Assembly (NCBI GenBank): GCA_027493875.1
Contig: JAOSJX010000006.1
Span: forward strand, 45,248 to 109,247
DNA length: 64,000 nucleotides
Direction: 5' to 3'
DNA from: Deltaproteobacteria bacterium
GTDB taxonomy: Bacteria > Lernaellota > Lernaellaia > JACKCT01
A program made the position numbers and the translations under genes. Below the pieces are notes generated by a model, which was not told where the DNA came from, ran no database searches, and worked only from the letters and a program-made list of their open reading frames with translations. Shown one piece after another: positions 16,682-60,043 of the stretch. Numbering within the stretch: the first letter of the stretch is position 1; the number at the start of each line of letters is the position of its first letter.

Positions 16682-19618
16682 CCGATAAAGCTCAACACCC
16701 GCAGCCGCCGCAACCGCCGTGGAATTGTTCCCGCCGCTGACGCTGCCGTCCTCGTCGTCGTCGTCCGGTGTGATCGGATCGGCCGCGCTGTCGTCGTCAT
16801 CCGCGTCGTCGTCGGGCGGAAAAAATGTCGTCGTCGCCGGCCGAATCGTCGTCCGACGTGTCGTCGTCGCCCGTATCGTCGTCCGCCGGAATCGTGGTGG
16901 TCGTCGTCGACGTCGTCGAGACCGTTGTGGTGGACGAACTGGTCGTCGGCGGAACGGTTGTGGAGGACGTTGTCGTTGTGGTCGAGGAACTGCTTGTCGT
17001 CGTCGAGCTTGATGACGTCGTGGTCGTCGAAGACGACGTCGTCGTGGAGGACGAGGACGTGGTCGTCGTACTCGATGAGGTCGTCGTGGTCGATGAGCTT
17101 GAAGTCGTGGTCGTGGAGGAGCTCGTCGTGGTGGTCGAGCTGGAAGATGTGGTCGTGGTCGAACTGGACGTTGTCGTTGTGGTCGAGGAACTGCTTGTCG
17201 TCGTCGAGCTTGATGACGTCGTGGTCGTCGAAGACGACGTCGTCGTGGAGGACGAGGACGTGGTCGTCGTACTCGATGAGGTCGTCGTGGTCGATGAGCT
17301 TGAAGTCGTGGTCGTGGAGGAGCTCGTCGTGGTGGTCGAGCTGGAAGATGTGGTCGTGGTCGAACTGGACGTTGTCGTCGTAGAGGAACTGCTGGTCGTC
17401 GTTGTACTCGACGACGTGGTGGTCGTCGACGAACTCGTTGTCGTCGTCGACGAACTTGTGGTCGTCGTGGAACTGGAGGTTGTTGTCGTTGACGAGGACG
17501 TGGTCGTGGTCGACGAACTCGTTGTTGTTGTCGATGACGACGTCGTGGTGGTCGACGAACTCGTTGTCGTCGTCGACGAACTTGTGGTCGTTGTGGAACT
17601 GGAAGTCGTGGTCGTCGACGAGGACGTGGTTGTGGTCGACGAGCTTGTGGTGGTTGTGGAGGAACTCGTGGTCGTGGTTGAAGACGACGTCGTGGTGGTG
17701 GAAGAGGAGCTCGTCGTCGTTGAGGAACTGCTTGTCGTTGTCGTTGAGCTGGACGTCGTCGTCGTGGAGGACGACGTGGTGGTCGTCGACGAGCTTGTGG
17801 TGGTTGTGGAACTGGATGATGTGGTCGTGGTTGACGACGAACTCGTGGTCGTCGAAGAACTGCTTGTCGTCGTTGAAGAACTCGAGGTGGTTGTGCTGCT
17901 CGACGTCGTCGTGGTGGACGAGGTCGTGGTCGTGGAAGAACTCGATGTGGTCGTTGTGGTGGAGGTCGTGGTCGTCGTCGTGACGACCGGATCACCCGGA
18001 ATCTCGCCCCACCACGTCGCCCAGCGGTCCCACCCGCCGCCGGGCGTCGCCGCGTATTCCTGAATCGTCCAGAACGTCGTGTCGTCTTCCGGGTCCACGA
18101 CGGTGTTGCTGTAATCGCCCCAGCGATTCCGTGTGCCGCTGTAGATTTTGTAATAAGGCGCTTCCCCGGCCTTGAGCACCGTATCGTCGCGCAAGACGCC
18201 CGCGGCATCCGTATCGTAGCGGAACGAATAGTTGCCGCCGGCGTACTGCGTTTCGGAAAACCGCGAGTAACCGATGACCGCGTTGTTGTATTGGTTCACC
18301 GCCATGCTGGGATACGCGTAAAACAAGTTTGCCGTGCCGTCGTCGATCCGGCCCTCTTGAACGCGCGAGATGGTCGACGGATTGATTTCCCACCATTGAA
18401 TGGACGACCGCGTCGGCGAGAAGGACGGCAGGAAGATCGTGTGCGTCGCCCAAAGGCTCCCGTTCCGGTAGACCAGCGTCTGCATCCGGTGATCGTTGGT
18501 CGTGATGCCTTGCACGGAATCGAGCTGCGGCGCGAAATCGTTTCCGGCGCTGCCGGCCCAGGTCCCAAGGGCGCTGCCGATCGCTCCCATGTACGAAATC
18601 GACTCCGAACCGATGGCGCCGGTGATTTGATAGAGACGGACTTCCCCGACAGCGAGCGCAGCACGTAGATCCGGTCGAGGGACGCGTCGAAGGTCTGCGC
18701 GGGGACCATGGTGAACTGCGGGTAGTCGATCCGCGTGTAGTCGACGGCGCCGCCGGCGTAGAGATCGGCCTTGTCGAAAACGAACAGGTACGTGGTCGAA
18801 TACGCATTCCCGCTGATGGTGAACATGTTCACCGAGACGACGACCCAGTCCTTGTTGTAGCCGAAGCTCGGATAATCGACCCACAGCGTGTTCCCCGAAT
18901 CCCCGTCGAGGAAGTAGAGATACCAGGTTCCCGTCGGGTCATCCGTCGCCGACGCGCCGATGAGCACGCCCGAGGTCGACGACGCGGCGTTCGCGCACGC
19001 GGTGAAAATCCACCGGCCCGACAGCTGGTCATAGAGCACCTTCGGATCGAACGCGTCGGCGCCGAGGGAACTCCAGAACACATCCAACGTCACCGTCCCG
19101 AGATTCGTTCCGGTCTTGCTCTGGATGCGCACCTGCGAATTGAGCACGGTCATCAGGTGATCGGGGCCGGCGGCGCCGTGCGTGTCCGGGGGAATCGTCG
19201 TGTTGTTGTCGAGCAGCGCCTGGAAGCTCGACGTGGGCGAAGGGCCGGGTACCAAGGGCGGAGGTCCGGCTTTTTCCGGCCCGCCGCGCTCCGGAAGCGG
19301 CGCGGCATCGTCATTCAAATAGTAATCGACCCACGGCGCCTCGCCTTCGTAGATCGGCGGGCCGACCGCCGCTTCCTGCATGACGAGATCGGAAAAATCG
19401 ACGACCGCGCTCGCGCGGATCTCGAGACGGGTTCCGGGGACCGGGCCGTCTTCCTCGATTTCGTCAAGGTTGACGCCGCCGCCGTCGGGATCATGCTCGA
19501 CGGTGATGTCGTCCGCGGACTCTTCCGCCGGTCCGTCATCCAACGAAGGATCACAGGCCGCGCCGGCCAAAACGACCAGCGCGCACAGAACGAAGAAAAT
19601 AGGATGACGAAGTTTCAC
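16682..19618 (-). CDS. giant secreted lipoprotein with a mucin-like Thr/Ser repeat region (~330 aa of TTTTSSS repeats) and an Asp-rich C-terminal tail ending …GGCGGCGC*; at least three apparent frameshifts
   Basis: Lipoprotein signal MKLRHPIFFVLCALVVLAGAAC at 19618. The globular domain runs across ORF 18296..19618 then ORF 16797..18884, joined at a g4 run near 18640. The T/S repeats are at ~16940-17990. The tail …IPADDDTGDDDTSDDDSAGDDDIF then continues, after an a6 run near 16810-16815, as PPDDDADDDDSAADPITPDDDDEDGSVSGG. A further 1-nt shift gives HGGCGGCGC with a TGA at 16682-16684. Confidence 0.6.
16940..17990 (-). repeat. tandem coding repeats (Thr/Ser-rich, ACG/TCG codon arrays) including exact ~200-bp tandem duplications (17001-17200 ≈ 17201-17400)
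   Basis: Long arrays of gtcgtcgtc/gaggacgac-type units, with whole blocks repeated verbatim. All three minus-strand frames stay open across it, producing artefactual Pro/Arg-rich ORFs; the plus-strand frames produce Val/Glu/Asp-rich ORFs. Confidence 0.8.
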
Positions 19619-19665
19619 CGCAAAGCACCGATCCGATAAGGCGGCGTATTATAGAGGATGCGCGT

Positions 19666-27046: not shown

Positions 27047-27682
27047 TTGGACCAACGGCTCGTCATCGGCACTTACGATCTCGACGAGGATCTGATCGCG
27101 CGCGTGCGGACGACGCGCGAACCGGCGCAGCGCGTCGCGGCGGTGGCGTCGCGCATGGTCGTGCTCGGGCGCGGAAGCAAGCCGGAGATGGAACTGCGCG
27201 TCGACAACTGCCTTGCCGACGGCGTTCCGGTTCTCCGCCGCGGCGGCGGATGCGCGGTCTTCCTCGACGAGGGCAATATCGTCGTGTCCGTCGTTCTCCC
27301 GGTCACAGGCATCGCGGGAAACGACCGCTACTTTTGCGACATCACGAAATGGCTGACGGCGGGACTATCGGAGATCGGCGTCCCCGGCGTCCGCCCGGCG
27401 GGCGTCTCCGACCTCGCCCTCGGCGACCGCAAGGTCGGCGGCGCGTGCATCCACCGCTCGAAGGACGTTTTGTATTACTCGACGACGCTGCTTATCTCGC
27501 CCGACGTGGACGCGATGGAACGCTACCTCGCGCAGCCGCCCAAGGAGCCCGACTACCGCCGCGGACGCGCGCATCGCGAATTCGTCGGCCGACTATCTCT
27601 TCCGCGTTCGATGGAAAATACCGAGGGACTTGCCGAGGCGTTACGCGCGGCGCTCAAATTTCCGATCGCATTCGGGAGCTAA
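27047..27682 (+). CDS. biotin/lipoate A/B protein ligase family protein (LplA/LipB-like catalytic domain)
   Basis: BPL/LPL catalytic-domain-like sequence VLGRGSKPEMELRVDNCLADGVPVLRRGGGCAVFLDEGNIVVSVVL. Convergent with the giant gene, with a 4-nt end overlap. Confidence 0.6.
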   Translation: MDQRLVIGTYDLDEDLIARVRTTREPAQRVAAVASRMVVLGRGSKPEMELRVDNCLADGVPVLRRGGGCAVFLDEGNIVVSVVLPVTGIAGNDRYFCDITKWLTAGLSEIGVPGVRPAGVSDLALGDRKVGGACIHRSKDVLYYSTTLLISPDVDAMERYLAQPPKEPDYRRGRAHREFVGRLSLPRSMENTEGLAEALRAALKFPIAFGS

Positions 27683-30600
27683 CACCCGCAACAACCCGCG
27701 TCGCCGTCATCGTCGTCGTCATCGCCGTCCTCTTCCCACGGGTCGCGGTGGCGGTCCGGCTCTTCGTCGTCGTCAGGTTCCGCGGCGGAGGCGGCGACCC
27801 ACTCGTCTTCCTCGTTCTGGCCGAATTCGGGAAGATCCCAATCGTCGTCCCATTTATCAAAGGTATCGTCGTCCCCGCCGGCGGTGTCGTCGTCATCGTC
27901 ATCGCCGAGGATCTGGTCGCACGTATCCTGAAGGTCGTTGCATTCCGTTCCGGGGTCGCAAGGGTCGCCGCCCGAAACGCAGGCCGCCTGACCCTCGACG
28001 CAAAACTCCGGTCCGTTGCAAAACACGCCGTCGTCCGCGCACGGGTTGCCCGATTGCAGGCAGCTTTGCGTTCCCTCGTCGCAACTCTCGACGCCGTTGC
28101 AGAACACCCCGTCGTCCGCGCACGGCACGTCCAACGGCACGCATTCGTTCTGCGTCTCGTCGCAGCTTTCCTCACCGTTGCAGAACAAGCCGTCGTCCGG
28201 ACACGGATCGCCCGACGAAACGCACATCTGCGCGTCCTCGTCGCAAGACTCGTCCCCATTGCAAAACACGCCGTCGTCGCCGCACGGATCGCCGGTGGAC
28301 AAACACGCGTCCCCGCCTTCGTCGCAGAACTCGTCGCCGTTGCAGAACACGCCGTCGTCCTCGCACGGATCGCCGGACGAAACGCACTCGCGCCCGCCCT
28401 CGTCGCACGATTCGACGCCGTTGCAAAACGCTCCGTCGTCGAAGCAGGGATCGCCGGTGGAAACGCACCCGTCGATATTGTCGTCGCAAATTTCGTCGCC
28501 GTTGCAGAACAGCCCGTCGTCGCTGCACGGATTCCCGGTGTGATCGCAAACGTCCTGCGCTTCGTTGCACGATTCGCCGCCGTTGCAGAACAGTCCGTCG
28601 TCGCCGCACGGCGGGCCGACGTGAAGGCACGCGTCCAGATTGTCGTCGCACGTCTCGCCGCCGTTGCAGAACAATCCGTCGTCCACGCACGGATTGCCCG
28701 ACGATTCGCAGGCGCTCTGCGCCTCGTTGCACGATTCGGTGCCGTTGCAAAACGCGCCGTCGTCGCCGCACGGATCGCCCGAATGCACGCACTGGTCGAT
28801 CTGGTCGTTGCAGATTTCGTTGCCGTTGCAAAACACGCCGTCGTCCAGGCAGGGGTTTCCGGCGTGCGTGCAAACGTTGCCCGCTTCGTCGCAGGTTTCC
28901 ACGCCGTTGCAGAACGCGCCGTCGTCGGGGCACGGATTGCCCGCGGAGGAGCATTGATCCAGCGTATCGTCGCAAAGCTCCGGCCCGTTGCAGAACACGC
29001 CGTCGTCGGCGCACGGATCTCCCGTCGTCACGCATTGGTCCGTGGTTTCGTTGCACGATTCCGCGCCGTTGCAGAAAAGTCCGTCGTCCGGGCACGGATC
29101 GCCCGCGTGCATGGAGCACGCCCCCGCCTGGCAGGCGTCGTCGCCGTTGCAGAAAACGCCGTCATCGCACGAGGCGCCGTTGTTGTCGGACCACGCCTGA
29201 TCGTCGATCCCCGGGTCGCAGAACAGGCAGCCGTTCACCGGGTTGGGATCGCCGTTGGCGTAACACACGCCGCCGATGAAACATCCGCCGGGGCACGCGG
29301 TGCGGATGTGCACGCCGGAAGGCTGCTCGGGCAGGCCGCCCACGTACCACGGCGACCCGGTCGCGTACGGCGTGGTGGCCGGCGAATACAGAAGCCGCGC
29401 CCGCCATCGCCACGTTCCCGGCCCGGGCTGCTGCGCCGTCGCCGTCATGGTGCCGGTGGTGCCGGCCGCGCCGCTGTCCGACCACGCCGCGAGCACGCCG
29501 TGATCCCACTCGTCGAACGCCTCGTCGAACGGCGCGACTTCCCACTCGATCCCGACCTTGCCGCGCCCGAACGGCGTTTTCTTGGGCGCCTTGATGCGGA
29601 ACGCGTCCGGCGACTCGGACGACGTGTACGGGCTCACGCGGCGGTCCACGTCGAGGCGGATCGGCACCGCGCGCCGCGTCAGGCCGCCTTCGTTGCCGTA
29701 GTAGATAAGCACGCGGCCCTCGTCCGTCTGGTCGTTGTTGAAATGCGGCGCGCCGACGATGACGTCGTCGAAGCCGTCGCTGTTCACGTCCGCCGCCGCG
29801 ACGCTCGCGCCGAGGTTCATATCCTGCTGCCCGCCCGAAACGGTCCACGCCGCGGCCGCGCTCGGCGCGGTCGCCGTGCCGAGATAGAGAAACGCCTGGC
29901 CTTCGTAGGTCAGCGTATTCGTGCGCAGATTGGCGCCGACGACCATATCGGCGTACCCGTCGCCGTTCACGTCGCCCGCCGTTCCGACACTGACGCCGTA
30001 GTTGCACAGATTCTGATTGCCTTCGCCCGTCCACGCCGCCGCGCTCTGCGGGCCGGACACGGTGCCGTAGTACAGCCGCGCGACGCCTTCCTTGAATTGG
30101 TCGCCGTTATACCGCGGCGCGCCGACGATGATGTCCGCGAAGCCGTCGCCGTTCACGTCACCCGCCGTCGCCACGGACGTACCGAAACGCGCGTCGGCGT
30201 TGTCGCTCTCTTTGCTCCACGCGGGCGCCGCGAGCGGGCCGGCCGACGTGCCGAGATAGACATGCGCGATGCCTTCATTGGTTTGCCCGTTCGTATAGTC
30301 CGGTGCGCCGACGATGATGTCGCTGAACCCGTCGCCGTTGACGTCGCCCGCGCCGCCGACCGACCAGCCGTACGCCGCGCCGACGGAATTGCCCTGGCCG
30401 GTCCACACCGGCGCGGCGGTGAGCCCCGTCGCCATCCCGAGATAAACAAACGCGGCGCCCTCGCCGTCTTCCCCCGCGTCATAGCCGTAGGCCCCGACGA
30501 TCACGTCGGTGTGGCCGTCGCCGTTGATGTCCCCGGCGCCCGCGACGCTGTACCCGAACCACGCGTTGTCCTGGTTCGACTCCGCCGTCCACGCCGCCGT

Positions 30601-33065
30601 CGTCTTCAGGCCCGTCGACGAACCGCGGTAGAGAAACGCGCGGCCCTCGTTGTTTTGGCCGGAATCGTAGAAGTTGGCGCCGAGGATGACGTCGTCGTAG
30701 CCGTCCGCATCCACGTCGCCCGCGCCGGCCACGCTGACGCCGAAGGCCGCGTTCGGCTGATTCGCCTCCGCGCTCCACACCGGCGACGCGATCGGCCCGT
30801 TGGGGCCGCCGTGAAACGCGAACGCGCGGCCCTCGTTGACTTCATCGGCATCGAAACCGCGCGCGCCCACGATGATGTCGGCGTAGCCGTCCCCCGTTGA
30901 CGTCGCCAGCGTTCGCCACGACGAGTCCGAATTCGGAGCCGCTCTGATTGCTTTCGATCACCGTCCCCGCCGCGGCCGCCAAGCCGCGGCCCGCGCCGTG
31001 GTACACGAAAGCGCGGCCCTCGTCGGCGAAGGAGCCGTCGTAGTCCGGAGCGCCCACCGCGATGTCGGCGAAGCCGTCGCCGTTCACGTCACCCGCGGCC
31101 ATCACGCTCATCCCGAAGTGCGCGTTGTTCTGGCCGCCGGTGCCGGACCACACGGGCGTCGTGGACGGGCCGGGTTTTCCGCCGAGATAAAGACGCGCCG
31201 ACCCCTCCGCGGACGTTCCGCCGAACGGCGCGCCGACCAGAAAGTCCGCGTAACCGTCGCCGTTCACGTCACCGGCCGGCGCGACGCTCGTGCCGAAGGC
31301 CACGCCCGCGAGATCGCTCTCGACGTTCCACCACGCCGTGGCGGACACGCCGAACGCCGATCCGAAAAACACCGCCGCGCGGCCTTCGCCCGCCTGCCCA
31401 TTCGAATAGCCGGGCGCGCCGGCGATCAGATCCGCGTAGCCGTCGCCGTTCGTATCCCCGGCCCCCGCGATGCCCGCGCCGAAAAATTCGCCCGTGAGCG
31501 TGCCGTCCTTGATCCACGAGGACGACCCGGAAAGTCCGGAGCTCGAACCGTGGTAAACGTACGCGCGTCCCGAATCCTGCACCGACAAATCAAAGCCGGG
31601 CGCGCCGACGGCCACGTCGCCGTAGCCGTCGCCGTTCACGTCACCCGCGGCGTCGAGCGCGTAGCCGAACATGGCGCCGGTCTGCGTGCCCTGGACGGCC
31701 CACGACGGCGAGGCCGCCGGCCCCGCGGAGCTTCCGTAGAACGCGTGCGCGAGGCCGCGGTCGGCCGACGCCCCATCGTAAAGCTCCGCGCCGACGAGCA
31801 CGTCCGCGTACCCGTCGCCGTTCACGTCTCCGGCCGACGCCACGGCCTGCCCATACGCCGAGTCCGGCTGGCCGCTCGCGTAGAACCAGAGGGGCGAGGC
31901 GCCGAGGCCGCCGGCCGACCCCGCGAAGACGTACGCGGCGCCTTCCGCCGTTTGCGTATCGGAGGCGCCCGGCGCGCCGACGATCAGATCGCCGAAATCG
32001 TCGCCGTTGACGTCGCCCGCCGCGGACACCGCCGCGGCGAACGCCATGTCCTGTTGGTCGCCCCGGGCCTCCCAGTCGGCGGTCACCGACAGCCCGGCGG
32101 CGCTTCCGTGAAAAACGAAAACCGCGCCCTCGCCGCCGAGACCGTTGTCGAAACCGGGCGCGCCGACGGCGAGATCGGCGAAGCCGTCGCCGTTCACGTC
32201 GCCCGCGGTCGACACCGAGGCGCCGAGACCCGCCGAGGCCGACGGCCCCGACGCCTGCCACGACGCCGGCGATGAAATCACCGGGTCGATGGTGACCGGA
32301 TAAATCGCGCCGTCATCCTGCACGACGATTCGCAACGAACCGTCCCATTCGAGACGCGCCGGCAGCGGCCGGCCGCCCGCGTCCCACGCGAAAGCGCCGC
32401 CGACGCGTAGCACCGCGCGCGCGGCATCGAAGAATTCCACGGCGCCGCCGCCGGCATCCTCCACGCCGTCGAGATCTCCCGCCGCCAGCACCTCGACCGT
32501 CAGCGGACCGATTCCGCCGGGCGCGGCCGGAACGACGTAGCCGAACTCGATCCCCTCGGGCCCGTTGTCGAACCATTCCGTGACGCCGCCGCGGGCGATT
32601 TCGACAACGCGCGGACAATCCTCGGCCATCCGAACCATGGCCGAGCAGCCGCCGAACGCGGGCGCCCCGGAGGGCAGGCCGGCGCGCGATCCGTCCCGTC
32701 CCACCGACACCGGCCGCAACATCATGCGCCAATCGCCGCGGCCCTCGCGGTCTTCAAGCTCGAGCGTCCCGTCCACCAACGCGCCGCGCAGGCTCCTGCG
32801 CCCGGTTGACGATGGAAAAACCTCCATCCCCGTCCGGACGGATGCGGTACTCCTCGGCCCGGATATAATCCAGGGCTTGTTCGGCCCACGACGCCACCGT
32901 CGGCCCGTCCGCGGCGTCGAATCCCGCGGCGGATTCCTCCGCCGCGGCCGAATCGGTGTCGGTAGGCCCGCCGTCGTCCGCGTTTTCGCACGCGACGAAC
33001 GGATAAACGGCCGCCGACAACAAAACGGCGATCGCCACAAGGCTGATATTTCGGTAAAAACGCAT
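27679..33065 (-). CDS. giant (~1800 aa) secreted lipoprotein: >14 FG-GAP (integrin-alpha beta-propeller) repeats, ~20 Myxococcus cysteine-rich repeats, acidic tail ending …DDDDDDGDAGCCGC*; at least two apparent frameshifts
   Basis: N-terminus with lipobox LLSAAVYPFVAC (ORF 32754..33065). FG-GAP units AGDVNGDGxADxxVGAP recur through ORF 30842..33040 and 27679..30870, joined at a c5 run ~30892-30896 (…AGDVNGDGYADIIVGARGFD). ~20 repeats of CxDDGxFCNGxExC(D/N). Tail DDDDDDTAGGDDDTFDKWDDDWD…EEDGDDDDDDGDAGCCGC*. Confidence 0.7.
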
Positions 33066-35882: not shown

Positions 35883-36497
35883 TTAGCCGTTGTACGTGAC
35901 GGTCAACGTCAGGTTCGTCAGCTTGTTGCTCACGTTGCCCGCCGCGTCGGTCCCCTCGATGTCGGCCGCGAGCGTGTAGTCGCCGGCGCCGGAGCCGAAG
36001 CCGTCTTCGCCGATGAGCAGGCCGATGCCCGTCTCAAGCGGCGCGTCGCAGTTGGTCACGTCCATCGCGTCGGGGTTCAGGTCGCCCCAGGTGATCGGCT
36101 GCTCGACGAAGAACTGGTCCGTCGTGCCGGCCGCGTAGAACCACGCGCCGCCCGGATCGGTCAGGTCGCCGTCGGGATCGCAAACCGAGAACAGGATCGC
36201 CGTGCAACCCGTGGTCTCGCAATCGGCCGACCAGGTGAACGACGCCGGATCCCAGAAGCCGTTCGACAGCACCGGGGCGTCGCCCGTGGCGGCGTCGTCG
36301 TCATCCGCGTCGTCATCCGTCGCGTCGTCGTCGGCGTCGTCATCGCTGAAATCGTCGTCGCCGAAATCGTCGTCATCGTCGTCGTCATCGTCGTCATCGT
36401 CATCGTCGTCGCCGCACGCCGCGACCGCGCCGATGGTGAAGACCATGGCCAGAATCATGGCCACCAGAAGCACGTGCTTTTCGAAAAAGGCTTTCAT
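35883..36497 (-). CDS. lipoprotein with very long poly-Asp linker and conserved unknown C-terminal domain (paralog 3, ~85% identical to paralog 2)
   Basis: MKAFFEKHVLLVAMILAMVFTIGAVAAC, then GD(24)…, then the same domain. Confidence 0.65.
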   Translation of the reverse strand: MKAFFEKHVLLVAMILAMVFTIGAVAACGDDDDDDDDDDDDDDDFGDDDFSDDDADDDATDDDADDDDAATGDAPVLSNGFWDPASFTWSADCETTGCTAILFSVCDPDGDLTDPGGAWFYAAGTTDQFFVEQPITWGDLNPDAMDVTNCDAPLETGIGLLIGEDGFGSGAGDYTLAADIEGTDAAGNVSNKLTNLTLTVTYNG

Positions 36498-41039: not shown

Positions 41040-41041
41040 CG

Positions 41042-41931: not shown

Positions 41932-41953
41932 CGGCCGCCCCCCCGTGCCCGCG

Positions 41954-42559: not shown

Positions 42560-42671
42560 CGCCCCGGAGCCCCGTCAAGGATCGACGCCGACGTTTCTCG
42601 GCGAAGAAATTGATTGACCACGGTTCGGGGTGGGCGCACAATCTTCATGACGGCGTGGAATCGAGGGTAGC

Positions 42672-45642: not shown

Positions 45643-47682
45643 ATGCGCCGAATGATTTTGACGATCCTGATCGCCTGCGTCGCCGTGGCCGGTTTTGTCC
45701 CCGCCGCGAGCGCCGACGAAGCGATTCAACTCAAAACGCGATCCTTCACGCCGCCGGCCTCCGCCGACGTCGCCGCGGATATCGCCAAGCTGGTGGGCCG
45801 GCACGGCGTCATTCAAATGAACGAAACGCCGGATGCCGGAAAGCGCGCCGCGCTCGCGGAAAAAGGCGTTCACTTGCTCAAGGCTCTGCCCGGCCGCGCC
45901 TACCTCGCCTTCATCGAGGAAGGCGCGCGCGTCGAGAAAAGCACCGCCGCGGCCTTTCGTTGGGCCGGCGAATTGAACCGCGCGGACAAAACGCACCCCC
46001 TGCTCGCGCAAGGCAAGTTTGTCATCGATCCCGAAGACGACGCGGGGCGCCGCGTGATGGATATTCTGATGTTCCCCGACGTGACCGAGGAAACCGGCCG
46101 CCGTATCCTCGAAAACGCCGGCTCCGAAATTCTCGGTCGCATCGCCACCGTCAACGGATTCACCGCCGCCCTCAATCCCTCCGCCGTGCCCGCGCTCGCG
46201 GAGGAAGACGCGGTGCTGTGGATCGCGGAGACGGAACCGGCCTATGAACCCTTCTTGGACGTCGGCAAGCCGGCCGTCGGCGGCGACGAGGCCAATGCGG
46301 CGCCTTACTTCACCACCGGCAAGGACGTCGGCGTTCTCGTGCTCGACGGCGGCACCGTCTTCGGCCACAAGGATCTCGAAGGCCGCCTGACACAGATCGA
46401 CGTGCCCATCCCCGACTTTTCCGGCCACGCGCACCACGTGTCGTGCATCGTCGCGGGGGACGGCACCATGTCCGGCGGGCAATACACCGGCATGGCGCCG
46501 GACGCGTCCATCGTGTCCGCCTCCACCACCGGGCTCGGCATCCCGCCGCTCTACAGCAACGCCGGCAACATGGAGCGCGTCTACGAAAACGCGATTCAAA
46601 ACCACAACGCCACCGTGTCCAACAACTCGATCGGCGCCAACCTCGCGCGTCTCGGGGCGAGCGCGTGCGTTTACGAGGGGGACTATTCCGTCACCGCGCA
46701 GGTGGTCGACACCATCGTCGGCGAGGAGTACGGCCGTATCCACATCGTCTGGTCCGCCGGCAACGAGCGCGGCTACGTCACGTGCGGCACGGCGTACAAC
46801 ACCAGCGCCCCGCCGGCCACGGCCAAAAACTCCATCGGCGTCGGCGCGCTCAACAAGGAAGACCTGTCGATGACGTCGTTTTCAAGCTGGGGCCCGACGG
46901 ACGACGGACGCATCCGCCCCGACGTCAGCGCGCCGGGTTGCGATCACGATTTCAACGGCATTCGCAGTTGCTGGTTGGCCGACCGTTACACGGACTTCTG
47001 CGGAACCAGTCAATCCGGACCCATCGTCGCCGGGTCGGTCGCGCTCGCGCAGGAATACTGGCGGCGCACGGTCCGCGAGGAAGACGCCTGGGCCTCCACG
47101 ATGAAGGCCCTTGTCATTCATAGCGCCATCGACCAGGGCGAACCGGGCCCGAACTACCGCGACGGCTTCGGCGCGCTCGACGTGCCGTCGCTGCTCGATC
47201 ACATCGACGGCGCCATGATCCTCGAAGAAGAACTGGATCAGGGCGACGCGTTCACGCTCGATCTTTATCCGTTCACGAACGACGTGAAGGTCACGCTCGT
47301 GTGGACCGATCCCGCCGCCACGGCGCTCGCCGCCACCGCGCTGATCAACGACCTGGATCTTTCCGTCATCACCGGCGACGGCACGGAGTTGCCTTGGATT
47401 CTCAATCCCTCCTCCCCCGCCACGCCCGCGACGAAGGGAGAAAACCACCGCGACCCGGTCGAGCAGGTGCAGTTTGATTCCTCGGGCGTGGACGGACCCG
47501 TTTCGGTCGTGGTCGAGGGAGCGAACGTTCCCGAGGGCCCGCAGCGGTTCTCCCTCGTCATCACCGGTCTTCAGGAGGAGGCTCCGGACGGCGGCGCGGA
47601 GGATGACGATGCGGATGATGATGCGACGGATGATGATGCGGGGGACGACGATGACGACGACGGCGGCGGATGCGGTTGCTGA
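45643..47682 (+). CDS. secreted subtilisin-like serine protease (peptidase S8) with C-terminal Asp-rich tail ending …DDDDDDGGGCGC*
   Basis: Signal MRRMILTILIACVAVAGFVPAASA; catalytic D (VLVLDGG), H (HGTHVSCIVAG) and S (GTSQSGPIVAG). Confidence 0.85.
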   Translation: MRRMILTILIACVAVAGFVPAASADEAIQLKTRSFTPPASADVAADIAKLVGRHGVIQMNETPDAGKRAALAEKGVHLLKALPGRAYLAFIEEGARVEKSTAAAFRWAGELNRADKTHPLLAQGKFVIDPEDDAGRRVMDILMFPDVTEETGRRILENAGSEILGRIATVNGFTAALNPSAVPALAEEDAVLWIAETEPAYEPFLDVGKPAVGGDEANAAPYFTTGKDVGVLVLDGGTVFGHKDLEGRLTQIDVPIPDFSGHAHHVSCIVAGDGTMSGGQYTGMAPDASIVSASTTGLGIPPLYSNAGNMERVYENAIQNHNATVSNNSIGANLARLGASACVYEGDYSVTAQVVDTIVGEEYGRIHIVWSAGNERGYVTCGTAYNTSAPPATAKNSIGVGALNKEDLSMTSFSSWGPTDDGRIRPDVSAPGCDHDFNGIRSCWLADRYTDFCGTSQSGPIVAGSVALAQEYWRRTVREEDAWASTMKALVIHSAIDQGEPGPNYRDGFGALDVPSLLDHIDGAMILEEELDQGDAFTLDLYPFTNDVKVTLVWTDPAATALAATALINDLDLSVITGDGTELPWILNPSSPATPATKGENHRDPVEQVQFDSSGVDGPVSVVVEGANVPEGPQRFSLVITGLQEEAPDGGAEDDDADDDATDDDAGDDDDDDGGGCGC

Positions 47683-49411
47683 CGTCTTCGAGCCGTTCGC
47701 GCAGCGGCGTCTCCGGCGTTTCGGGAAGACCGCGCATCCGGCGGAGTTCGGCCAGCCCGAGCCATAACACCATCCACGCCGCCGCGGCGAGGCTGATCTG
47801 CTTCGCCACGAGACGCACGCGCGTCGGTTCGAACTCCACCATCGTCTCGTAGATTCCGGGCGGCACCGTGAACGTGATCTCGCCGGTGCGCGCGTCGGGC
47901 TCGATCGCCAGCGGCTCCTCACCGATCCGCGCCGTCCAGCCGGGAAAGTAGAACGTGTGCACCAGGACGCGCGCGTCCGTCGCCGCGTTCACGCGAAACC
48001 GGTACGACGCCTGACGCAGGCGCGTCGGCTCGATGCTCGCCTCGCCCTCCATGATCTCCGCGCGGTTGGCGAAATAGCTCGTCGGTTTTTCCTTGACCCA
48101 TACGGGCAGAAAATCGTCGCGCGCGGTGGATTTGCTCTCGCGCGCTTCGCGGAGCAGCCACGGCGTCAGAAGATCCTGCGCTTCGATAAAACGTGAATCG
48201 CCCCGCGCGACCATCGCCTGCTCGCGCGTCATCGAAACGATGTTCTCCGGATTGGCGCGCTCGTGCATGAGATACCGCGCTTGGAGGTACGGTCCGTACA
48301 CGATCAGGGCGGCCAGCAAGACGGCGTACGACGACGCCGCTTCGCCCCGAACGCCCCAACGCTTCCGCGCCATCCAAATCGTCGCACCGGAAAGCCCGGT
48401 CAGCCCCAAGGTCGCCGGCAGGAGAAAGCGCCACGGAAACTGCGTGAACGGCAGAAGCGGCAAAGCGCCCCAGAACGGTTTGGAGAAGCGCGTCGTAAAA
48501 TAAAGCGCGATCGCGGCGGTCAGCGCGAATCCCACGGCCGCGCGCCAGCGCAGGTCGCGCTCCTTCTGGCGCACCATCCAAATCAGCGCCGGCATCGCCA
48601 ACACCAGATGCAGGAGGCCCGCCTGTTTGCTCATCCCCTGCCCCGGCGGCTGTTGCGCCGTCCCGAAACCCCACGCGCGGCTCACGAGATCGGCGAGCGA
48701 CGCGAAGTTGCGGCTGTAGTGAAACGCGCCGGCGGTCAGATTGAACTCGGCGTTGAGATAGGACTTCTCCAGCAGCGCGGGCAGCCAGAAGAAGGACGAC
48801 GCGGCAAGCCCGAGCGCCACGGCGGTTAATTCACGGCGCATCTTCTTCGGCCACCGCACCAGGACGATCCACAAGATAATGAGCGGCAGGCCGATCATCG
48901 CGCTGATGTTGTGCGATAACGCCAACAGCGCGACCGCGCAGCCGCCCGAGATCGCCGACTGCGTCCGCCCGCGCGCCGCGCCGCTGCGGTGAAAAAAGTA
49001 GAACGCCAGCGCCATCCACGTGAAGCCGGACAACTCGGCCAGCGCGCCCCGCACGTACAGGTCCGCGAGCAGATACGGCGACAGCATGTACATCGCCGAG
49101 GCCGCCAGCGCCGCGCGCGCATCCCAGATCTCGCGGACGAGCAGATACATCGACGTACCGGCCAGCACGACGAAAAGAATGTACGTCGCCTTCACGGCGG
49201 CGAACGGCGTCAGACCGATCAGACAAAAGACCTGGCCGATCAGGTAAACGAGCGGCGCGTAGAAATTAAAGATCGGCGAACCGCGCCCGAAGTAATAATC
49301 GGCGATCCACCGGGGATAAACGTACCCGTCCTGGTACGCTTCATTCACCTCGATCTGACGGATCAGGTCGATGTGCGCCGAATGCCCGAAGTGCATCACG
49401 GGAATCCACAC
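47561..49411 (-). CDS. large polytopic membrane protein (YfhO / glycosyltransferase-39-like topology); family assignment tentative
   Basis: >12 predicted TM helices. GTG start ~49411. The His/Arg-rich last ~40 codons are the antisense of the subtilase acidic tail and are probably not real. Confidence 0.5.
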   Translation of the reverse strand: MWIPVMHFGHSAHIDLIRQIEVNEAYQDGYVYPRWIADYYFGRGSPIFNFYAPLVYLIGQVFCLIGLTPFAAVKATYILFVVLAGTSMYLLVREIWDARAALAASAMYMLSPYLLADLYVRGALAELSGFTWMALAFYFFHRSGAARGRTQSAISGGCAVALLALSHNISAMIGLPLIILWIVLVRWPKKMRRELTAVALGLAASSFFWLPALLEKSYLNAEFNLTAGAFHYSRNFASLADLVSRAWGFGTAQQPPGQGMSKQAGLLHLVLAMPALIWMVRQKERDLRWRAAVGFALTAAIALYFTTRFSKPFWGALPLLPFTQFPWRFLLPATLGLTGLSGATIWMARKRWGVRGEAASSYAVLLAALIVYGPYLQARYLMHERANPENIVSMTREQAMVARGDSRFIEAQDLLTPWLLREARESKSTARDDFLPVWVKEKPTSYFANRAEIMEGEASIEPTRLRQASYRFRVNAATDARVLVHTFYFPGWTARIGEEPLAIEPDARTGEITFTVPPGIYETMVEFEPTRVRLVAKQISLAAAAWMVLWLGLAELRRMRGLPETPETPLRERLEDVSNRIRRRRRHRRPPHHHPSHHHPHRHPPRRRPEPPPEDR

Positions 49412-50808: not shown

Positions 50809-51141
50809 CAGGACGAGCTCCAGCGGACGATAGAAATTCGGGTAGTACGTTTTACGGAAAAGATCGGCGACGGAGGCGTCGTGCGCCTGGTGGACGACGT
50901 TCCACGCCTGAAAATCGTCGGCGAAAGGACGGAGGTCGCGCGCCGGTTCCCAAAACCACCAAAGACCGCGCCGCCGCCGCCATAAGCAGCACCGTCGTCG
51001 GAAGATAGGAACGCGGAGAAGATTCGGACGTCACCGCGTCATTCAAGCGCGCGAACGGCGGGAGGGCAAGGCGTCGGCTTCAAAATGAAAAAAAGGGCGG
51101 GAATCGTCCCACCCTCTTTGCGCACCGAAAGGCCGGAAAGC

Positions 51142-54022: not shown

Positions 54023-55812
54023 ATGAAGTATTATTTTGTTTTCCTCCTCGCGCTTTTTGCGTTTATTCCCGTTTTGTCGTGCGGCTGCGGCGGCGACGAT
54101 GACGACGACGATAACGACTCGGCCGGCGACGACGACACCGATGACGACGTCGACGATGATACGGATGACGACATCGACGACGACACCGATGACGACATCG
54201 ACGATGATACGGATGACGATACCGACGATGACACCGACGACGACACGGGCGACGACGACGCGGCGCCCGACCGGCTCGTCTTCGTTCCGGCGACCGTTGA
54301 CGACTCCGGAAAAAAAGTCGGCGTTCTTCTAACCATCGATACGACGGGCGACGAAAACGAGGCCGTCGTTTCTCTCGTGGAGATGCCGTCCGGTACGCTC
54401 CTCCGGTCGAGCGACCCGGTTTCGCTGGGGGCGTTCGGCGCCGCGAATTGTCTGGTGGAGGATTTTACGGGCGACGGCGTCGCGGAGATCGTTTGCGGCT
54501 TCATCTCGATGGACAGCCCCACCGACCCCTCGACGGAGGTGGTGATTCTCGATCCGGACACGTTGGGAACGGACCTCGTCGTCGATACGTACGACGCGGC
54601 GCAGGCGCTGCTCGGCGGCAACATCGACGTGAACGGCGACGGCGTTCCCGGAACTCGTCGTCTGGACGATTCCCACGGGCACGGACGGCGCGCACATCGG
54701 CGCGTTCGACGGCACGCTCGCCTATACCGACCTGCTCGATTACACCGCGGCCGAGGGGCGCAACGCGCGCGTGCACGCGCTGCCGTACCGCTCCGGCTGG
54801 TCGCGCCCCGCGGATTTTTCCGGCGCGAAAGCGAACGAGGTGATCGTCGCGGAGTACGACCGCGAGGGCGACGATCCGGTGGTCGAAATATTTTCCGTGA
54901 ACCCGTCGGGCGCCGTCACGAGTTCGCTCGGTCCCTATACGCTGGCGACGGCCGCGGCTTATCATTTGACGACCGCGGATTTGAACGGCGACGGCGACGG
55001 CGAACTCGCGCTGGCGCTGCAACTGGACGCGTCGACGGTCGTCTACCTGTTCGATACGTTCGGCGACGTGGTCGGCACGTACACCTACCCCGCCGGGGTC
55101 TCCGCGCGCGTGGCGATGAATCTGAATCTCGACGGCGACGGCCAAAACGATCTGGCGATCACGCTGCGCGGCTCGAGCGACGAACGCGCGATCGATCTCT
55201 ACTCCTCGACCGGCGCCTATCTGGACGGCGTGCGTTTCGGGCCGGAGGGCGACCAGATCCGGTTGCTCGCGTCGTCCGTTTCGCCCGGCGTGGCGGCCCC
55301 GGCGTCGACGGGCGGCGACGCACTGTTCGGCGTGATGGTGGAGGAATTCGACACGGGCGGCCCTGCGCGCATCGATTTTTTTCACCGATCCGTCGGACGC
55401 GACGCCGATCACGCTCGACGATCTCACCGTGTCGTCGGAGCACATCTATCTGGGGGCGTCTTTGCGCGATTACACGGGCGACGGCGTGGCCGAAGTGATC
55501 GCGGTGACGATGGGTTACGCGATTTCCGCGGCGGAGATCGTTTACCAGCGCCGGGTGCAGGTGTTCGGCGGCGCGGACGTGGAACTCGGCTACGACTCCG
55601 GCGCGGTGCCGGGATCGATTTCGCTGGCGAGCCCGTGGGACACGGACGCGGACGGCGTGCCGGAGTTTCAGCTCACGCACTACGGATCGTCGGCCGCCGA
55701 CGTGCCGTGGATTCGTTTTTACAACGGCGTGGACTCGTGGAGCGTGGCGCGGGTGACGCTGGTCGGCGACATCGCCGGGTCGGATATTTTTCTGTACGGG
55801 CTGCCGCGTTAA
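54023..55812 (+). CDS. lipoprotein with a Cys-Gly-Cys-Gly-Gly plus long poly-Asp N-terminus and FG-GAP/VCBS-like (DxDGDG) beta-propeller repeats; two apparent frameshifts
   Basis: MKYYFVFLLALFAFIPVLSCGCGGDDDDDDND…(DDDTDDDI)n. Repeats FTGDGVAEIV, NVNGDGVP, LNGDGDGELA, LDGDGQNDLA, YTGDGVAEVI. The frame changes occur near 54650 and at the t7 run 55371-55377. Confidence 0.65.
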
Positions 55813-57715: not shown

Positions 57716-58537
57716 CTAAACGCGGGCCGCAAAAACCCCTGCGGGCTTCAACTTCCCCGCCGATACTAGCTTTTTTCGGCTTCCGGCGTATATGAAGCAG
57801 ATCACACAGCCGGCGAGCATGGCAATGCTTATCCACTGGCTGGTGGACAGGAAGCCGAAACGGCCGCGGGAGGCGTCACCACGCATGAATTCCAGCAAAA
57901 AGCGCCCGACGCCGTAAATACCTAATTGCAGGCCGAAAATTTCGCCATAGGCCCGTTCTTTCTTCTTGGCGCGGTAGGCCATCAGAATGCCGAACATCAG
58001 GAGCCCCAAAAGAGCCTCGTAAAGCTGCGACGGGTGGAGGGCCAAGCCGCCGTAGGCCTTGTCCGGCCGCGAACCCTCGGGAAAGATGACCCCCCAGGGC
58101 AGGTCGGTGGGCGCGCCGTAGCAGCAGCCCGCCATGAAGCAGGCGCCCGAACGGTGAATGGCGAGCCCCAGGCCGAAGTAGGTGCTGGCGATATCCTGAA
58201 ACGGCAGATAGGGGTGGCGCTTGAATTTGGTGTAACCGACCGCGCCGGCGACCGCGCCGATGAAGCCGCCGTAGAGCACGATGCCGCGCTTGCGATTGAA
58301 GATGCGGACGGGATCGGCCCAGTACCAGTCGAAATTGACGATCACGTCGAGCAGGCGCGAGCCGACGATGACGCCGACCAGCGACGCGATGAGCGCGCCC
58401 ATCATCAACTCTTCGTTGAAGCCTTCTTTCTTTGCGCGCCGCACGCACAGGATCACGCCCATCAGGATCGTGAGCGGATACACCACCTGATAAAAATGGA
58501 TGTCCTTGCCGGCGACGGTCACTAGAATGGGATGCAA
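57716..58537 (-). CDS. lgt: prolipoprotein diacylglyceryl transferase
   Basis: Lgt signature LHPSQLYEALLGL, conserved YGxxxxxG and H…S residues; TTG start with a GGGAGGG SD. Confidence 0.85.
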   Translation of the reverse strand: MHPILVTVAGKDIHFYQVVYPLTILMGVILCVRRAKKEGFNEELMMGALIASLVGVIVGSRLLDVIVNFDWYWADPVRIFNRKRGIVLYGGFIGAVAGAVGYTKFKRHPYLPFQDIASTYFGLGLAIHRSGACFMAGCCYGAPTDLPWGVIFPEGSRPDKAYGGLALHPSQLYEALLGLLMFGILMAYRAKKKERAYGEIFGLQLGIYGVGRFLLEFMRGDASRGRFGFLSTSQWISIAMLAGCVICFIYAGSRKKLVSAGKLKPAGVFAARV

Positions 58538-60035: not shown

Positions 60036-60043
60036 TCGCGACG

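What the first reader, a model, noticed from the sequence alone, without database searches (positions are those of the whole stretch)
47560..47682. Three large secreted proteins end exactly in an Asp-rich tract followed by a terminal Cys-Gly-Cys, a candidate new C-terminal tag (copy 1: subtilase)
The S8 protease ends …DDDADDDATDDDAGDDDDDDGGGCGC* with the stop immediately after Cys, and no TM helix or basic tail in any frame downstream. The same architecture closes the ~1800-aa FG-GAP/Cys-repeat protein (…DDDDDDGDAGCCGC*, 27679) and the mucin-like giant (…DDDDEDGSVSGG…HGGCGGCGC*, 16682). It is therefore not PEP-CTERM, MYXO-CTERM, LPXTG or GlyGly-CTERM, all of which need a TM and basic cluster. 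A terminal CXC/CC is the Rab-type double-prenylation signal in eukaryotes. A polyprenyl-PP synthase and an IspH-UbiA prenyltransferase fusion lie in this same window, but any link is speculative. Other candidate roles are metal (Ca/Zn/Cu) capture, or covalent C-terminal anchoring that mirrors the N-terminal Cys-poly-Asp lipoprotein ends.
Basis: partly seen in the sequence, partly recalled or inferred. Interest (0 to 1): 0.75.

Follow-up and report, generated by a model that had tools for sequence, protein, structure and literature searches.

The report
Poly-Asp Cys-Gly-Cys C-terminal sorting tag
Dozens of unrelated exported enzymes in one little-known bacterial lineage end in a run of aspartates followed by Gly-Cys-Gly-Cys and a stop codon; this looks like an undescribed surface-anchoring tag, equal to the signature motif of the myxobacterial MYXO-CTERM signal without its membrane helix.

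Summary
The S8 protease (45643-47682) ends ...DDDDDDGGGCGC-stop and the FG-GAP giant ends ...DDDDDDGDAGCCGC-stop. The third copy reads this way only after two one-base homopolymer corrections.

It is not chance. All 16 closest S8 relatives (37-52% identity) end the same way. A genome-wide DNA pattern scan found 36 in-frame cases, all in 8 related uncultured MAGs; one S8 relative is from Ca. Alcyoniella, phylum Lernaellota. Control loci totalling 540 kb had none.

The carriers are unrelated Sec-exported hydrolases and adhesins. Codons vary synonymously, all three stop codons occur, and no membrane helix follows in any frame.

The same genomes hold N-terminal lipoproteins that begin Cys-Gly-polyAsp, the mirror image of the tag. 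GCGC is the published signature of MYXO-CTERM. One S8 relative carries the full form (polyAsp-GGCGGC, helix, Arg tail), which scores just under the MYXO-CTERM model cut-off.

Best reading, inferred and not shown: a tail-less, "pre-cleaved" MYXO-CTERM-like anchor whose terminal cysteines are covalently modified, probably lipidated. Rab-type prenylation and a link to the window's prenyl genes are not supported. No curated model or paper that I searched describes the tag.

The parts
45643..47682 (+). S8 (subtilase) peptidase gene, 679 aa, identical to NCBI MCZ7583411.1; carrier of tag copy 1
45643..45714 (+). Signal-peptidase-I-type N-terminal signal peptide (MRRMILTILIACVAVAGFVPAASA)
   Evidence: by inspection; no predictor was run
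47599..47670 (+). Asp-rich linker EDDDADDDATDDDAGDDDDDD plus a GGG spacer
47671..47682 (+). Terminal Cys-Gly-Cys followed by the TGA stop
27679..30957 (-). C-terminal 1092 codons of the FG-GAP / Cys-repeat giant. It continues upstream in ORF 30842-33160 across a G5 frameshift near 30,905. Its N-terminus MRFYRNISLVAIAVLLSAAVYPFVAC lies in yet another frame near 33,100.
27679..27729 (-). Tag copy 2: DGDDDDDDGDAGCCGC followed by the TAG stop
16692..16721 (-). Tag copy 3 (HGGCGGCGC + TGA), out of frame with its presumed gene
16722..19648 (-). Mucin-like Ser/Thr-repeat protein, spread over ORFs 18296-19648 and 16797-18938 and an Asp-rich stretch. It reaches tag copy 3 only after two homopolymer corrections.
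54023..54290 (+). Mirror-image N-terminus of a lipoprotein: lipobox ...VLSC, then GCGG, then polyAsp (mature end C-G-C-G-G-D6)
35883..36497 (-). Lipoprotein with the N-terminus ...AVAAC-G-D15 (mirror architecture). Further examples lie in ORFs 35116-36033, 34330-35013, 42672-44183, 44212-45543 and 7083-8372.
   Evidence: none has a Pfam match
57716..58537 (-). lgt (prolipoprotein diacylglyceryl transferase): the only Cys-lipidating enzyme seen in the window. Listed as context; it is not shown to act on the tag.

Best explanation
This is a lineage-specific C-terminal sorting and anchoring tag: a disordered Asp-rich tether, usually a small residue (Gly, Ala or Ser), then two cysteines (GCGC, GCCGC or [GAS]CCG) at or within one residue of the free C-terminus.

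Proposed pathway:
1. The carrier crosses the inner membrane through Sec, using an ordinary signal peptide.
2. The terminal cysteine thiols are covalently modified at the envelope, most likely by thioether or thioester lipidation, as is proposed but unproven for the invariant Cys of MYXO-CTERM.
3. The protein then stays attached to a membrane, probably on the cell surface, held away from it by the polyAsp spacer.
4. Because the gene already stops after the Cys, no intramembrane cleavage by a myxosortase is needed. The tag is in effect a pre-cleaved MYXO-CTERM.
5. PolyAsp may also act as a surface-export signal, as the acidic signal next to the lipidated Cys does in Bacteroidota lipoproteins.

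Shown here: the tag exists and is conserved at the protein level; it is restricted to one lineage; its carriers have signal-peptide-like N-termini and are unrelated to each other; no TM helix follows it; it mirrors the N-terminal lipoprotein ends; it aligns with the signature motif of a tripartite relative.

Inferred only: any covalent modification, its chemistry, the enzyme, and the final location of the protein.
For: - All 16 closest S8 relatives (37-52% identity, many metagenomes) keep polyAsp plus a Cys motif at the very end.
- There are 42 tagged ORFs in 35 lineage loci plus the window, and none in 540 kb of control loci.
- Gly, Cys and stop codons vary synonymously, so selection acts on the peptide and not on a DNA element.
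- All three stop codons are used. The only hydrophobic stretches downstream are the signal peptides of the next genes.
- All 27 full-length carriers start with signal-peptide-like N-termini and show no clear lipobox (by inspection).
- Cargo spans peptidases M14, C25, S8 and M28, GH43, PKD, FG-GAP, Kelch and BNR, the usual clientele of sorting tags.
- The residue before the first Cys is G, A or S in 59 of 61 tails, the same set as lipobox position -1 (lipobox consensus quoted in PMC12462473).
- Most polyAsp tracts in these genomes sit either directly before the terminal CxC (38) or directly after an N-terminal lipobox Cys (about 22). One lipoprotein starts C-G-C-G-G-D6, the exact mirror of the S8 end.
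- The MYXO-CTERM signature is 'generic GCGC', with cleavage proposed distal to the Cys.
- P0017, a relative with the same domain architecture as the tail-less P0016 and P0021, carries polyAsp-GGCGGC, a TM helix and RNRPR. Its tail scores 17.8 bits (cut-off 20) against TIGR03901.2. The gene lies next to a T2SS-M gene.
- Classical DDDD-GCGC-TM-RRRR tails occur in metagenomes.
Against: - There is no chemical evidence of any modification.
- Every characterised prokaryotic C-terminal anchor signal uses a TM helix to hold the substrate at the membrane for the modifying enzyme. Without one, it is unclear how a membrane enzyme would capture a soluble, highly acidic tail.
- Lgt needs a hydrophobic signal-peptide context, which is absent here.
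- No candidate enzyme recurs next to tagged genes.
- Two carriers in the window (the FG-GAP giant and the mucin-like protein) may also have N-terminal lipobox-like Cys residues, so the two ends are not strictly alternatives.
- The tail-less tag itself gets no hit from the MYXO-CTERM model.
- The neighbour-joining tree that places P0017 near P0016 and P0021 is crude.
Confidence: 0.5

Rival explanations
1. The tail binds metals, minerals or matrix. PolyAsp chelates Ca2+/Mg2+ or sticks to carbonate or oxide minerals or to cationic exopolysaccharide, and the terminal CxC binds a soft metal (Cu, Zn, Fe) or a sulfide mineral. Secreted enzymes are retained near the cell without any covalent lipid.
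For: PolyAsp and CxC are classic cation- and thiophilic-metal-binding chemistries (general knowledge). The carriers are extracellular hydrolases from uncultured MAGs. The window also encodes an unrelated Cys-based HvfA/B/C metallophore system, so metal handling matters to this organism.
Against: The Cys spacing is not fixed: CGC, CC, CCGC and occasional single-Cys ends all occur. A defined metal site would not tolerate that, though lipidation motifs do. The same polyAsp sits next to the lipidated Cys of N-terminal lipoproteins. A relative has the same motif followed by a sorting-type TM helix and Arg tail.
Confidence: 0.15
2. The tail is a disulfide tether. The terminal cysteines form intermolecular disulfides with an envelope or S-layer partner, or with each other, cross-linking the enzymes into a surface coat.
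For: There are two exposed, Gly-flanked cysteines at a flexible end. Many carriers are Cys-rich extracellular proteins, for example the FG-GAP Cys-repeat protein and the MopE-like repeats.
Against: The one named relative, Ca. Alcyoniella australis, is described as lacking aerobic respiration genes and as most abundant in an anoxic zone (PMC9324843); exposed disulfides would be unstable there. No recurrent partner gene was found. Single-Cys variants and the tripartite relative fit a sorting signal better.
Confidence: 0.12
3. The tail is a non-covalent targeting signal. It is recognised by a secretion or outer-membrane translocation machine (T2SS-like or unknown) and is not itself an anchor.
For: The tag occurs on exported, mostly non-lipoprotein cargo. 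P0017 lies next to a T2SS-M gene. Acidic residues next to a lipidated Cys act as a surface-export signal in Bacteroidota (PMC5080379).
Against: In M. xanthus, TraA lacking MYXO-CTERM is still secreted by the T2SS, so there the tag is the anchor and not the secretion signal (PMC11980579). The near-invariance of the thiols and of the small -1 residue points to chemistry on the Cys.
Confidence: 0.15
4. The proteins receive Rab- or CAAX-like prenylation in the cytoplasm, supplied by the window's polyprenyl synthase and IspH-UbiA genes.
For: Terminal CC and CXC are the Rab geranylgeranylation motifs (general knowledge). The window encodes a polyprenyl synthase (41254-42096) and, next to lgt, an IspH fused to a UbiA-like prenyltransferase.
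Against: The carriers have Sec signal peptides and extracellular-type domains. No protein prenyltransferase was seen among the window ORFs scanned. The UbiA domain has only 4 relatives by word search. The one related locus with readable neighbours (L236) keeps IspH next to UbiA but has no lgt there and no tagged gene among its four genes.
Confidence: 0.03
5. The pattern is an artefact: chance low-complexity ends, truncated ORFs from assembly errors, or a conserved DNA element such as a terminator.
For: This assembly does contain homopolymer frameshifts.
Against: There are more than 60 independent genes, from several assemblies and sequencing projects, with synonymous codon variation, all three stop codons and often tandem stops. 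No tagged ORF occurs in the control loci.
Confidence: 0.02

Closest known systems
MYXO-CTERM sorting signal (TIGR03901) with myxosortase MrtX/MrtC/MrtP, of Myxococcota and Bradymonadales
   Same: A Cys-containing signature, generically GCGC and sometimes CC, sits after a disordered linker at the C-terminus of many Sec-exported surface proteins per genome. Cleavage is proposed just distal to the Cys, so the mature end would look like the end encoded here. One S8 relative (P0017) carries the full tripartite form, just under the model cut-off, next to a T2SS gene.
   Different: Here there is no TM helix and no Arg cluster, because the stop codon follows the Cys. No endopeptidase step is therefore needed or possible. 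The tag has a long polyAsp tract instead of a generic linker, occurs in a different phylum-level lineage, and gets no hit from the curated model.
Other Cys-bearing tripartite signals: JDVT-CTERM, Synerg-CTERM and the archaeal CGP-CTERM (CPBP/Rce1-type sorting proteases)
   Same: An invariant Cys in a short signature near the C-terminus; lipidation on the Cys is presumed.
   Different: All have a TM helix and a basic tail and a cognate intramembrane protease. Their signatures differ (a DP motif, an invariant Pro, or CGP).
Bacterial N-terminal lipoproteins (lipobox, Lgt/Lsp) with an acidic lipoprotein export signal
   Same: A small residue (G/A/S) precedes the Cys. In this lineage polyAsp lies directly beside the Cys, as acidic residues follow the lipidated Cys in Bacteroidota surface lipoproteins (PMC5080379). 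The C-terminal tag is the sequence mirror of the local lipoprotein N-termini.
   Different: Opposite end of the protein; no hydrophobic signal-peptide segment next to the Cys; two cysteines instead of one. Action of Lgt on such an end is unknown.
Eukaryotic Rab CC/CXC and Ras CAAX prenylation (with Rce1 cleavage)
   Same: Terminal CC or CXC. CAAX processing leaves a lipidated Cys as the last residue. Rce1 belongs to the same protease superfamily as the myxosortases.
   Different: Those are cytosolic substrates and enzymes. The proteins here are exported through Sec and are hydrolases and adhesins, not GTPases.
GlyGly-CTERM/rhombosortase, PEP-CTERM/exosortase, PGF-CTERM/archaeosortase, LPXTG/sortase
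   Same: Short C-terminal tags shared by many unrelated secreted proteins of one genome, which lead to surface attachment.
   Different: Different signature motifs. All are tripartite, with a TM helix and a basic cluster that a dedicated enzyme removes.

Membership tests
MYXO-CTERM (TIGR03901) | Short signature motif with an invariant Cys, frequently GCGC, close to the C-terminus | tested here: met
   40 of 61 tails end GCGC; the rest end GCCGC, [GAS]CCG, ACGC and similar. Motif definition.
MYXO-CTERM (TIGR03901) | Hydrophobic transmembrane helix after the signature | tested here: not met
   A stop codon follows the Cys within 0-1 residues in 60 of 61 tails. No TM helix lies in any downstream frame apart from the next genes' signal peptides.
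MYXO-CTERM (TIGR03901) | Arg-rich cytoplasmic cluster at the extreme C-terminus | tested here: not met
   Absent from all tail-less tags. Present only in the relative P0017 and in metagenome loci L135, L139, L216 and L229.
MYXO-CTERM (TIGR03901) | Scores at or above the curated cut-off of the HMM | tested here: not met
   No hit for the window proteins or the isolated tail at E up to 10. P0017's tripartite tail scores 17.8 bits against a cut-off of 20.
MYXO-CTERM (TIGR03901) | Cognate myxosortase (CPBP core, NF040914) in the same genome | not testable with these tools
   Only about 0.3 Mb of lineage DNA is held. A motif scan of it found no convincing CPBP. Whole genomes could not be fetched.
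MYXO-CTERM (TIGR03901) | Many Sec-exported, unrelated surface proteins per genome carry it | tested here: met
Rab-type CC/CXC double geranylgeranylation | Terminal CC, CXC or CCX motif | tested here: met
Rab-type CC/CXC double geranylgeranylation | Cytosolic small-GTPase substrate, accessible to a cytosolic prenyltransferase | tested here: not met
   The carriers have N-terminal signal peptides and extracellular hydrolase or adhesin domains.
Lipobox / Lgt substrate | G, A or S at position -1 of the modified Cys | tested here: met
   59 of 61 tails; consensus as quoted in PMC12462473.
Lipobox / Lgt substrate | Leu/Val/Ile at -3 and a hydrophobic signal-peptide core immediately before the Cys, at the N-terminus | tested here: not met
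   PolyAsp precedes the Cys, and the motif is at the C-terminus.
PEP-CTERM, GlyGly-CTERM, LPXTG, PGF-CTERM | The named signature motif followed by a TM helix and a basic cluster | tested here: not met
   None of these motifs and no TM helix is present. No NCBIfam sorting-domain hit.
T9SS C-terminal domain | Folded C-terminal domain of about 80-100 aa, recognised by Pfam or TIGRFAM models | tested here: not met
   The C-terminal 30-90 residues are low-complexity polyAsp. No such Pfam or NCBIfam hit.

The most novel reading that the evidence does not exclude
Bacteria of this lineage attach Sec-exported proteins to a membrane through cysteines at the free C-terminus, with no transmembrane segment and no sorting protease. 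This would be a new route of C-terminal protein lipidation acting on a soluble, already exported tail, in which lipid-Cys-Gly-polyAsp is read as a surface-localisation signal in either chain direction. Because the lineage would need the Cys-modifying enzyme but not the myxosortase, comparing it with Myxococcota could identify the long-sought MYXO-CTERM lipid transferase.
Probability: 0.35. Interest if true: 0.85.

Novelty: new variant of a known kind. Interest (0 to 1): 0.74.

Why it matters
Every prokaryotic C-terminal sorting signal described so far (LPXTG, PEP-CTERM, PGF-CTERM, GlyGly-CTERM, MYXO-CTERM and its Cys-bearing relatives) is tripartite and needs a dedicated protease. A tag that consists only of the signature motif and then stops would show that the membrane helix and the cleavage step are dispensable.

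It also bears on an open question. The enzyme that modifies the invariant Cys of MYXO-CTERM is unknown (PMC11980579). A lineage that encodes the "already cleaved" end gives a clean phylogenetic-profiling contrast: the modifying enzyme should be shared with Myxococcota, and the myxosortase may be absent. The tag is also simple enough to test on synthetic peptides.

On the practical side, the tag marks what is probably the surface or secreted degradative proteome (proteases, glycosidases, adhesins) of an uncultured polymer-degrading lineage. These proteins are annotated today only by their catalytic domain.

Tried and rejected
- Exact look-up of the S8 protein's contig found nothing.
- A profile of 37 tails searched against the 5.8-billion-protein set gave no hit at E up to 10, so it yielded no census of carriers. 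Low-complexity short profiles are probably too weak at that database size.
- All-against-all clustering of 249 ORFs from lineage loci found no non-cargo gene that recurs beside tagged genes. It found only a B12/radical-SAM paralogue family.
- A CPBP (myxosortase) motif scan of the held lineage DNA found nothing convincing. This is uninformative for whole genomes.
- IspH-UbiA/lgt lead: the UbiA domain has 4 relatives. IspH-UbiA juxtaposition recurs in L236, but lgt does not lie next to it there. AliA/AliB, the archaeal lipoprotein lipidation enzymes, are not UbiA-like.
- Conserved DNA element or terminator: rejected because codons vary synonymously.
- Read-through, recoding or selenocysteine: rejected because TGA, TAA and TAG all occur, often in tandem, and nothing coherent follows.
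- Literature searches (Lernaellota, FEN-1099, MYXO-CTERM, GCGC motif, aspartate-rich sorting, poly-aspartate lipoprotein) found no description of the tag.
- Not attempted: structure prediction, fold search and the representative-protein search. I judged them uninformative for a disordered low-complexity tail.
Full report
**1. Observation**

The ORF ending at 47682 (+) is a 679-aa S8 peptidase (Pfam PF00082, 128 bits). It is identical to NCBI MCZ7583411.1 from a MAG labelled 'Deltaproteobacteria bacterium'. It ends EDDDADDDATDDDAGDDDDDDGGGCGC, followed by TGA.

The FG-GAP / Cys-repeat protein ending at 27679 (-) terminates DDDDDDGDAGCCGC, followed by TAG.

The third case is weaker. HGGCGGCGC-TGA at 16692-16796 (-) is a 34-codon frame on its own. 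It joins the mucin-like ORF only if a T6 run loses one base and a G3 run gains one. That gives ...DDDIFPPDDDADDDDSAADPITPDDDDEDGSVSGGEQFHGGCGGCGC. This is credible, because two other frameshifts I read in this window lie in G-runs: G5 near 30,905 splits the FG-GAP giant, and G4 near 18,645 splits the mucin-like protein. It still needs read-level confirmation.

**2. Not chance, and not confined to this window**

- The motif pattern is expected 0 times in shuffles of the window.
- All 16 closest S8 relatives (P0002-P0016 and P0021; 37-52% identity; ENA, JGI, Logan and NCBI sources) end in an Asp-rich tract followed by GCGC, TCGC, GCCG, SCCG, ECCG or GCGS. More distant homologues do not.
- I scanned one genome per species with a degenerate DNA pattern for D5-x(0-5)-C-[GC]-[GC]-stop.
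  - 36 matches were in frame at the end of an ORF of at least 60 codons.
  - All 36 came from eight MAGs: DAIMDW01, DAIPLW01, DAINPV01, JACKCT01 'HK-STAS-FEN-2', CAXXWT01, CAZEDX01, CAZPJD01 and CAYSHR01.
  - Matches in other bacteria and in archaea were out of frame with no ORF. The one exception is a 61-codon Arg-rich ORF in a Microbacterium locus, which I take for chance.
- With relaxed criteria, the 35 lineage loci (229 kb) hold 38 tagged ORFs of at least 100 aa. The 78 control loci (540 kb) hold none.
- Untargeted neighbours are often tagged too. Examples are three more in L024 and three more beside the S8 relative in L115 (GGCCGC, GGCCSC, EEGCCG).
- P0021 comes from Ca. Alcyoniella australis, phylum Ca. 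Lernaellota (= FEN-1099). I infer that the lineage is Lernaellota or close to it; I did not place the MAGs phylogenetically.

**3. Anatomy**

- Across 61 tails, the end is GCGC in 40, GCCGC in 5, GCCG in 5 and SCCG in 3, with rarer ACGC, TCGC, ECCG, GCGS and GCCSC.
- The residue before the first Cys is G (53), A (3), S (3), T (1) or E (1).
- Nothing follows the last Cys in 50 tails, and one residue follows in 10. Metagenomes add the variants GCGCQV and GCGCG.
- In 54 of 61 tails, one to four residues separate the last Asp run from the first Cys.
- Gly uses all four codons, Cys uses both, and TGA (28), TAA (8) and TAG (6) all terminate, often in tandem. The constraint is therefore on the peptide.
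- The only hydrophobic stretches within 150 nt downstream are the signal peptides or lipoboxes of the next genes.
- By inspection, all 27 carriers with a complete N-terminus begin with a positively charged, then hydrophobic, then AXA-like signal peptide and lack a clear lipobox. No predictor was available.
- Cargo is heterogeneous: peptidases M14, C25, S8 and M28, GH43, PKD, FG-GAP, Kelch, BNR, CarboxypepD_reg, DUF2334 and others.

**4. Mirror image at the other end**

PolyAsp tracts in these genomes are not scattered:

| Position of the polyAsp tract | Count |
|---|---|
| Directly before the terminal CxC | 38 |
| Directly after an N-terminal lipobox Cys (for example ...AVAAC-G-D15, ...VASC-GG-DDDD) | about 22 (15 by regular expression, at least 7 more by eye) |
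| Internal linkers | about 8 |
| Before a single-Cys end (GCGR, GGCA, NGCA) | 3 |

The lipoprotein at 54023 (+) starts its mature end C-G-C-G-G-D6. This is the exact reverse of the S8 end D6-G-G-G-C-G-C. Neither feature occurs in the control loci. In true lipoproteins that Cys is the lipid attachment site. In Bacteroidota, acidic residues just after it direct surface exposure (PMC5080379).

**5. Relation to MYXO-CTERM**

- Haft (bioRxiv 10.1101/2023.06.07.544157) and the follow-up mBio paper (PMC11980579) define MYXO-CTERM as a signature with an invariant Cys ('GCGC motif'), then a TM helix, then an Arg cluster.
- Their model is as follows. An unknown enzyme lipidates the Cys. The CPBP/Rce1-type myxosortase cuts distal to the Cys. 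The T2SS then takes the protein to the surface. Lipidation has not been demonstrated.
- The tag here is that signature followed by a stop, which is the predicted mature end.
- P0017 (39% identical to the window S8) shares the MopE-like repeat architecture of the tail-less P0016 and P0021 (Alcyoniella).
  - It ends ...DDDDDDGGCGGC-ASVRGGPGHGLIPLGLLLLLASAYSITRVLLRNRPR.
  - In a local alignment its polyAsp-G-C motif aligns column for column with the tail-less ends.
  - Its tail scores 17.8 bits (cut-off 20, E 0.003) against TIGR03901.2.
  - Its gene follows a T2SS-M gene.
- A metagenome scan for D4-G-C-G-C followed by further residues recovered classical tripartite tails in L135, L139, L216 and L229.
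- The tail-less tag gets no NCBIfam or Pfam hit. No tripartite form was seen in 0.3 Mb of lineage DNA.

**6. Mechanism I commit to (confidence about 0.5)**

Sec export is followed by covalent modification, most likely lipidation, of the terminal Gly-flanked cysteines. The protein is then retained on a membrane, probably at the cell surface, on a polyAsp tether. No cleavage step is needed.

- Shown: the features listed in sections 1 to 5.
- Inferred: the modification, its chemistry, the enzyme and the final location.
- Main difficulty: no known envelope lipid transferase acts on a soluble acidic tail that has no TM anchor.

**7. Rival explanations**

- Metal, mineral or matrix binding by polyAsp plus CxC (0.15). 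This is disfavoured by the variable Cys spacing and by the link to sorting signals.
- Disulfide tethering (0.12). This is disfavoured for Ca. Alcyoniella, which is described as lacking aerobic respiration genes and as most abundant in an anoxic zone, and by the lack of a recurrent partner gene.
- A purely non-covalent export signal (0.15).
- Rab-like cytosolic prenylation (0.03).
- Artefact (0.02).

**8.

- The window encodes a polyprenyl synthase at 41254-42096.
- On one strand it also encodes lgt (57716-58537), then ispH, whose last ~60 residues run in frame into a UbiA/DGGGPS-like prenyltransferase (55813-57054).
- The UbiA domain has only four relatives by word search.
- In L236, IspH-UbiA is again contiguous, but lgt is not beside it.
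- Nothing ties these genes to the tag, and the carriers are exported proteins.

**9. Membership and novelty**

The tag meets the signature and cargo criteria of MYXO-CTERM but fails the TM, Arg-cluster and HMM criteria. The myxosortase criterion could not be tested. It is therefore not a member, but it plausibly works like the processed product.

I found no curated model (NCBIfam r20, Pfam) and no paper describing it. I rate it a new variant of a known kind: Cys-bearing C-terminal sorting signals.

**10. Dead ends**

These are listed under Tried and rejected. The most important limit is that whole genomes could not be profiled, so neither the cognate enzyme nor the presence of a myxosortase is known.

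Noticed in passing
window 59571-61758 (+): A RiPP metallophore cluster: an HvfA-like precursor ending ...KCGEGSCGGKK (weak hit to NF050137, 13.5 bits against a cut-off of 19.5), an HvfB MNIO maturase (NF003818, 289 bits against a cut-off of 360; Pfam MbnB_TglH_ChrH 290 bits) and an HvfC-like partner (NF050145, 79 bits against a cut-off of 142). It is a second, unrelated Cys-modifying system in the window.
   Followed up: partly
window 55813-58537 (-): lgt is followed on the same strand by ispH, whose C-terminal ~60 residues continue in frame into a UbiA/DGGGPS-like prenyltransferase (a frameshift lies inside ispH). IspH-UbiA juxtaposition recurs in metagenome locus L236 without lgt. The UbiA domain has only 4 relatives by word search.
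   Followed up: partly
window ~30,905; ~18,645; ~16,825; ~16,730; ~33,000-33,150; ~57,000: Apparent frameshifts split long genes (the FG-GAP giant, the mucin-like protein and ispH). The sites at ~30,905 and ~18,645 were read and lie in G-runs. The T6 (~16,825) and G3 (~16,730) sites for copy 3 are inferred from the minimal corrections that restore the frame. The sites at ~33,000-33,150 and ~57,000 were not inspected at base level. Gene ends in this window should be read with that in mind.
   Followed up: partly
window 47561-47682, both strands: The convergent GT-C-type membrane protein (PTPS_related/PMT_2, 47561-49411, -) overlaps the S8 3' end by about 120 nt. The antisense of (GAY)n contains no stop codons, which gives that protein a His/Arg/Pro-rich tail. 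A GT-C-like gene also follows the S8 relative P0017 in L114.
   Followed up: partly
proteins P0018-P0120 (distant S8 homologues); window 24971-26167 (-): 32 of 103 more distant S8 homologues, those with source names mostly Planctomycetota, end in ...Cys-Pro-stop, and 7 more end in Cys-Asn or Cys-Glu. These ends follow dockerin-like or FN3-like domains. The window's M10-like metalloprotease also ends ...NSCP. This may be another terminal-Cys motif; I did not investigate it.
   Followed up: no
L121, L197, L226, L227 (metagenome loci): Short variants of the tag occur with extra residues after the cysteines: ...DDDDGCGCQV-stop and ...GCGCG-stop. L121 also carries a DDGCCGC-stop protein and an N-terminal lipobox-polyAsp protein on the same contig.
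   Followed up: partly
window 41954-42574 (-) and 41254-42096 (-): A lipoprotein ends in a 50-residue polyAsp tract with no terminal Cys (...DDDTGDDDSA-stop), and its 3' end overlaps the start of the polyprenyl synthase ORF. This is either a true Cys-less tail or another frameshift.
   Followed up: no
window 16797-18100 (-): About 380 residues of near-perfect (Thr4 Ser3-4)n repeats form a mucin-like domain. Several GT-C-type membrane proteins lie in the window (47561-49411; others at 49771-51030 and 39974-41169 have no Pfam hit and are judged by eye), which suggests O-glycosylation.
   Followed up: no
L114 478-999 (+): The only relative with a full tripartite tail (P0017) lies immediately downstream of a T2SS-M gene. 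This fits T2SS-dependent surface delivery as described for MYXO-CTERM.
   Followed up: partly
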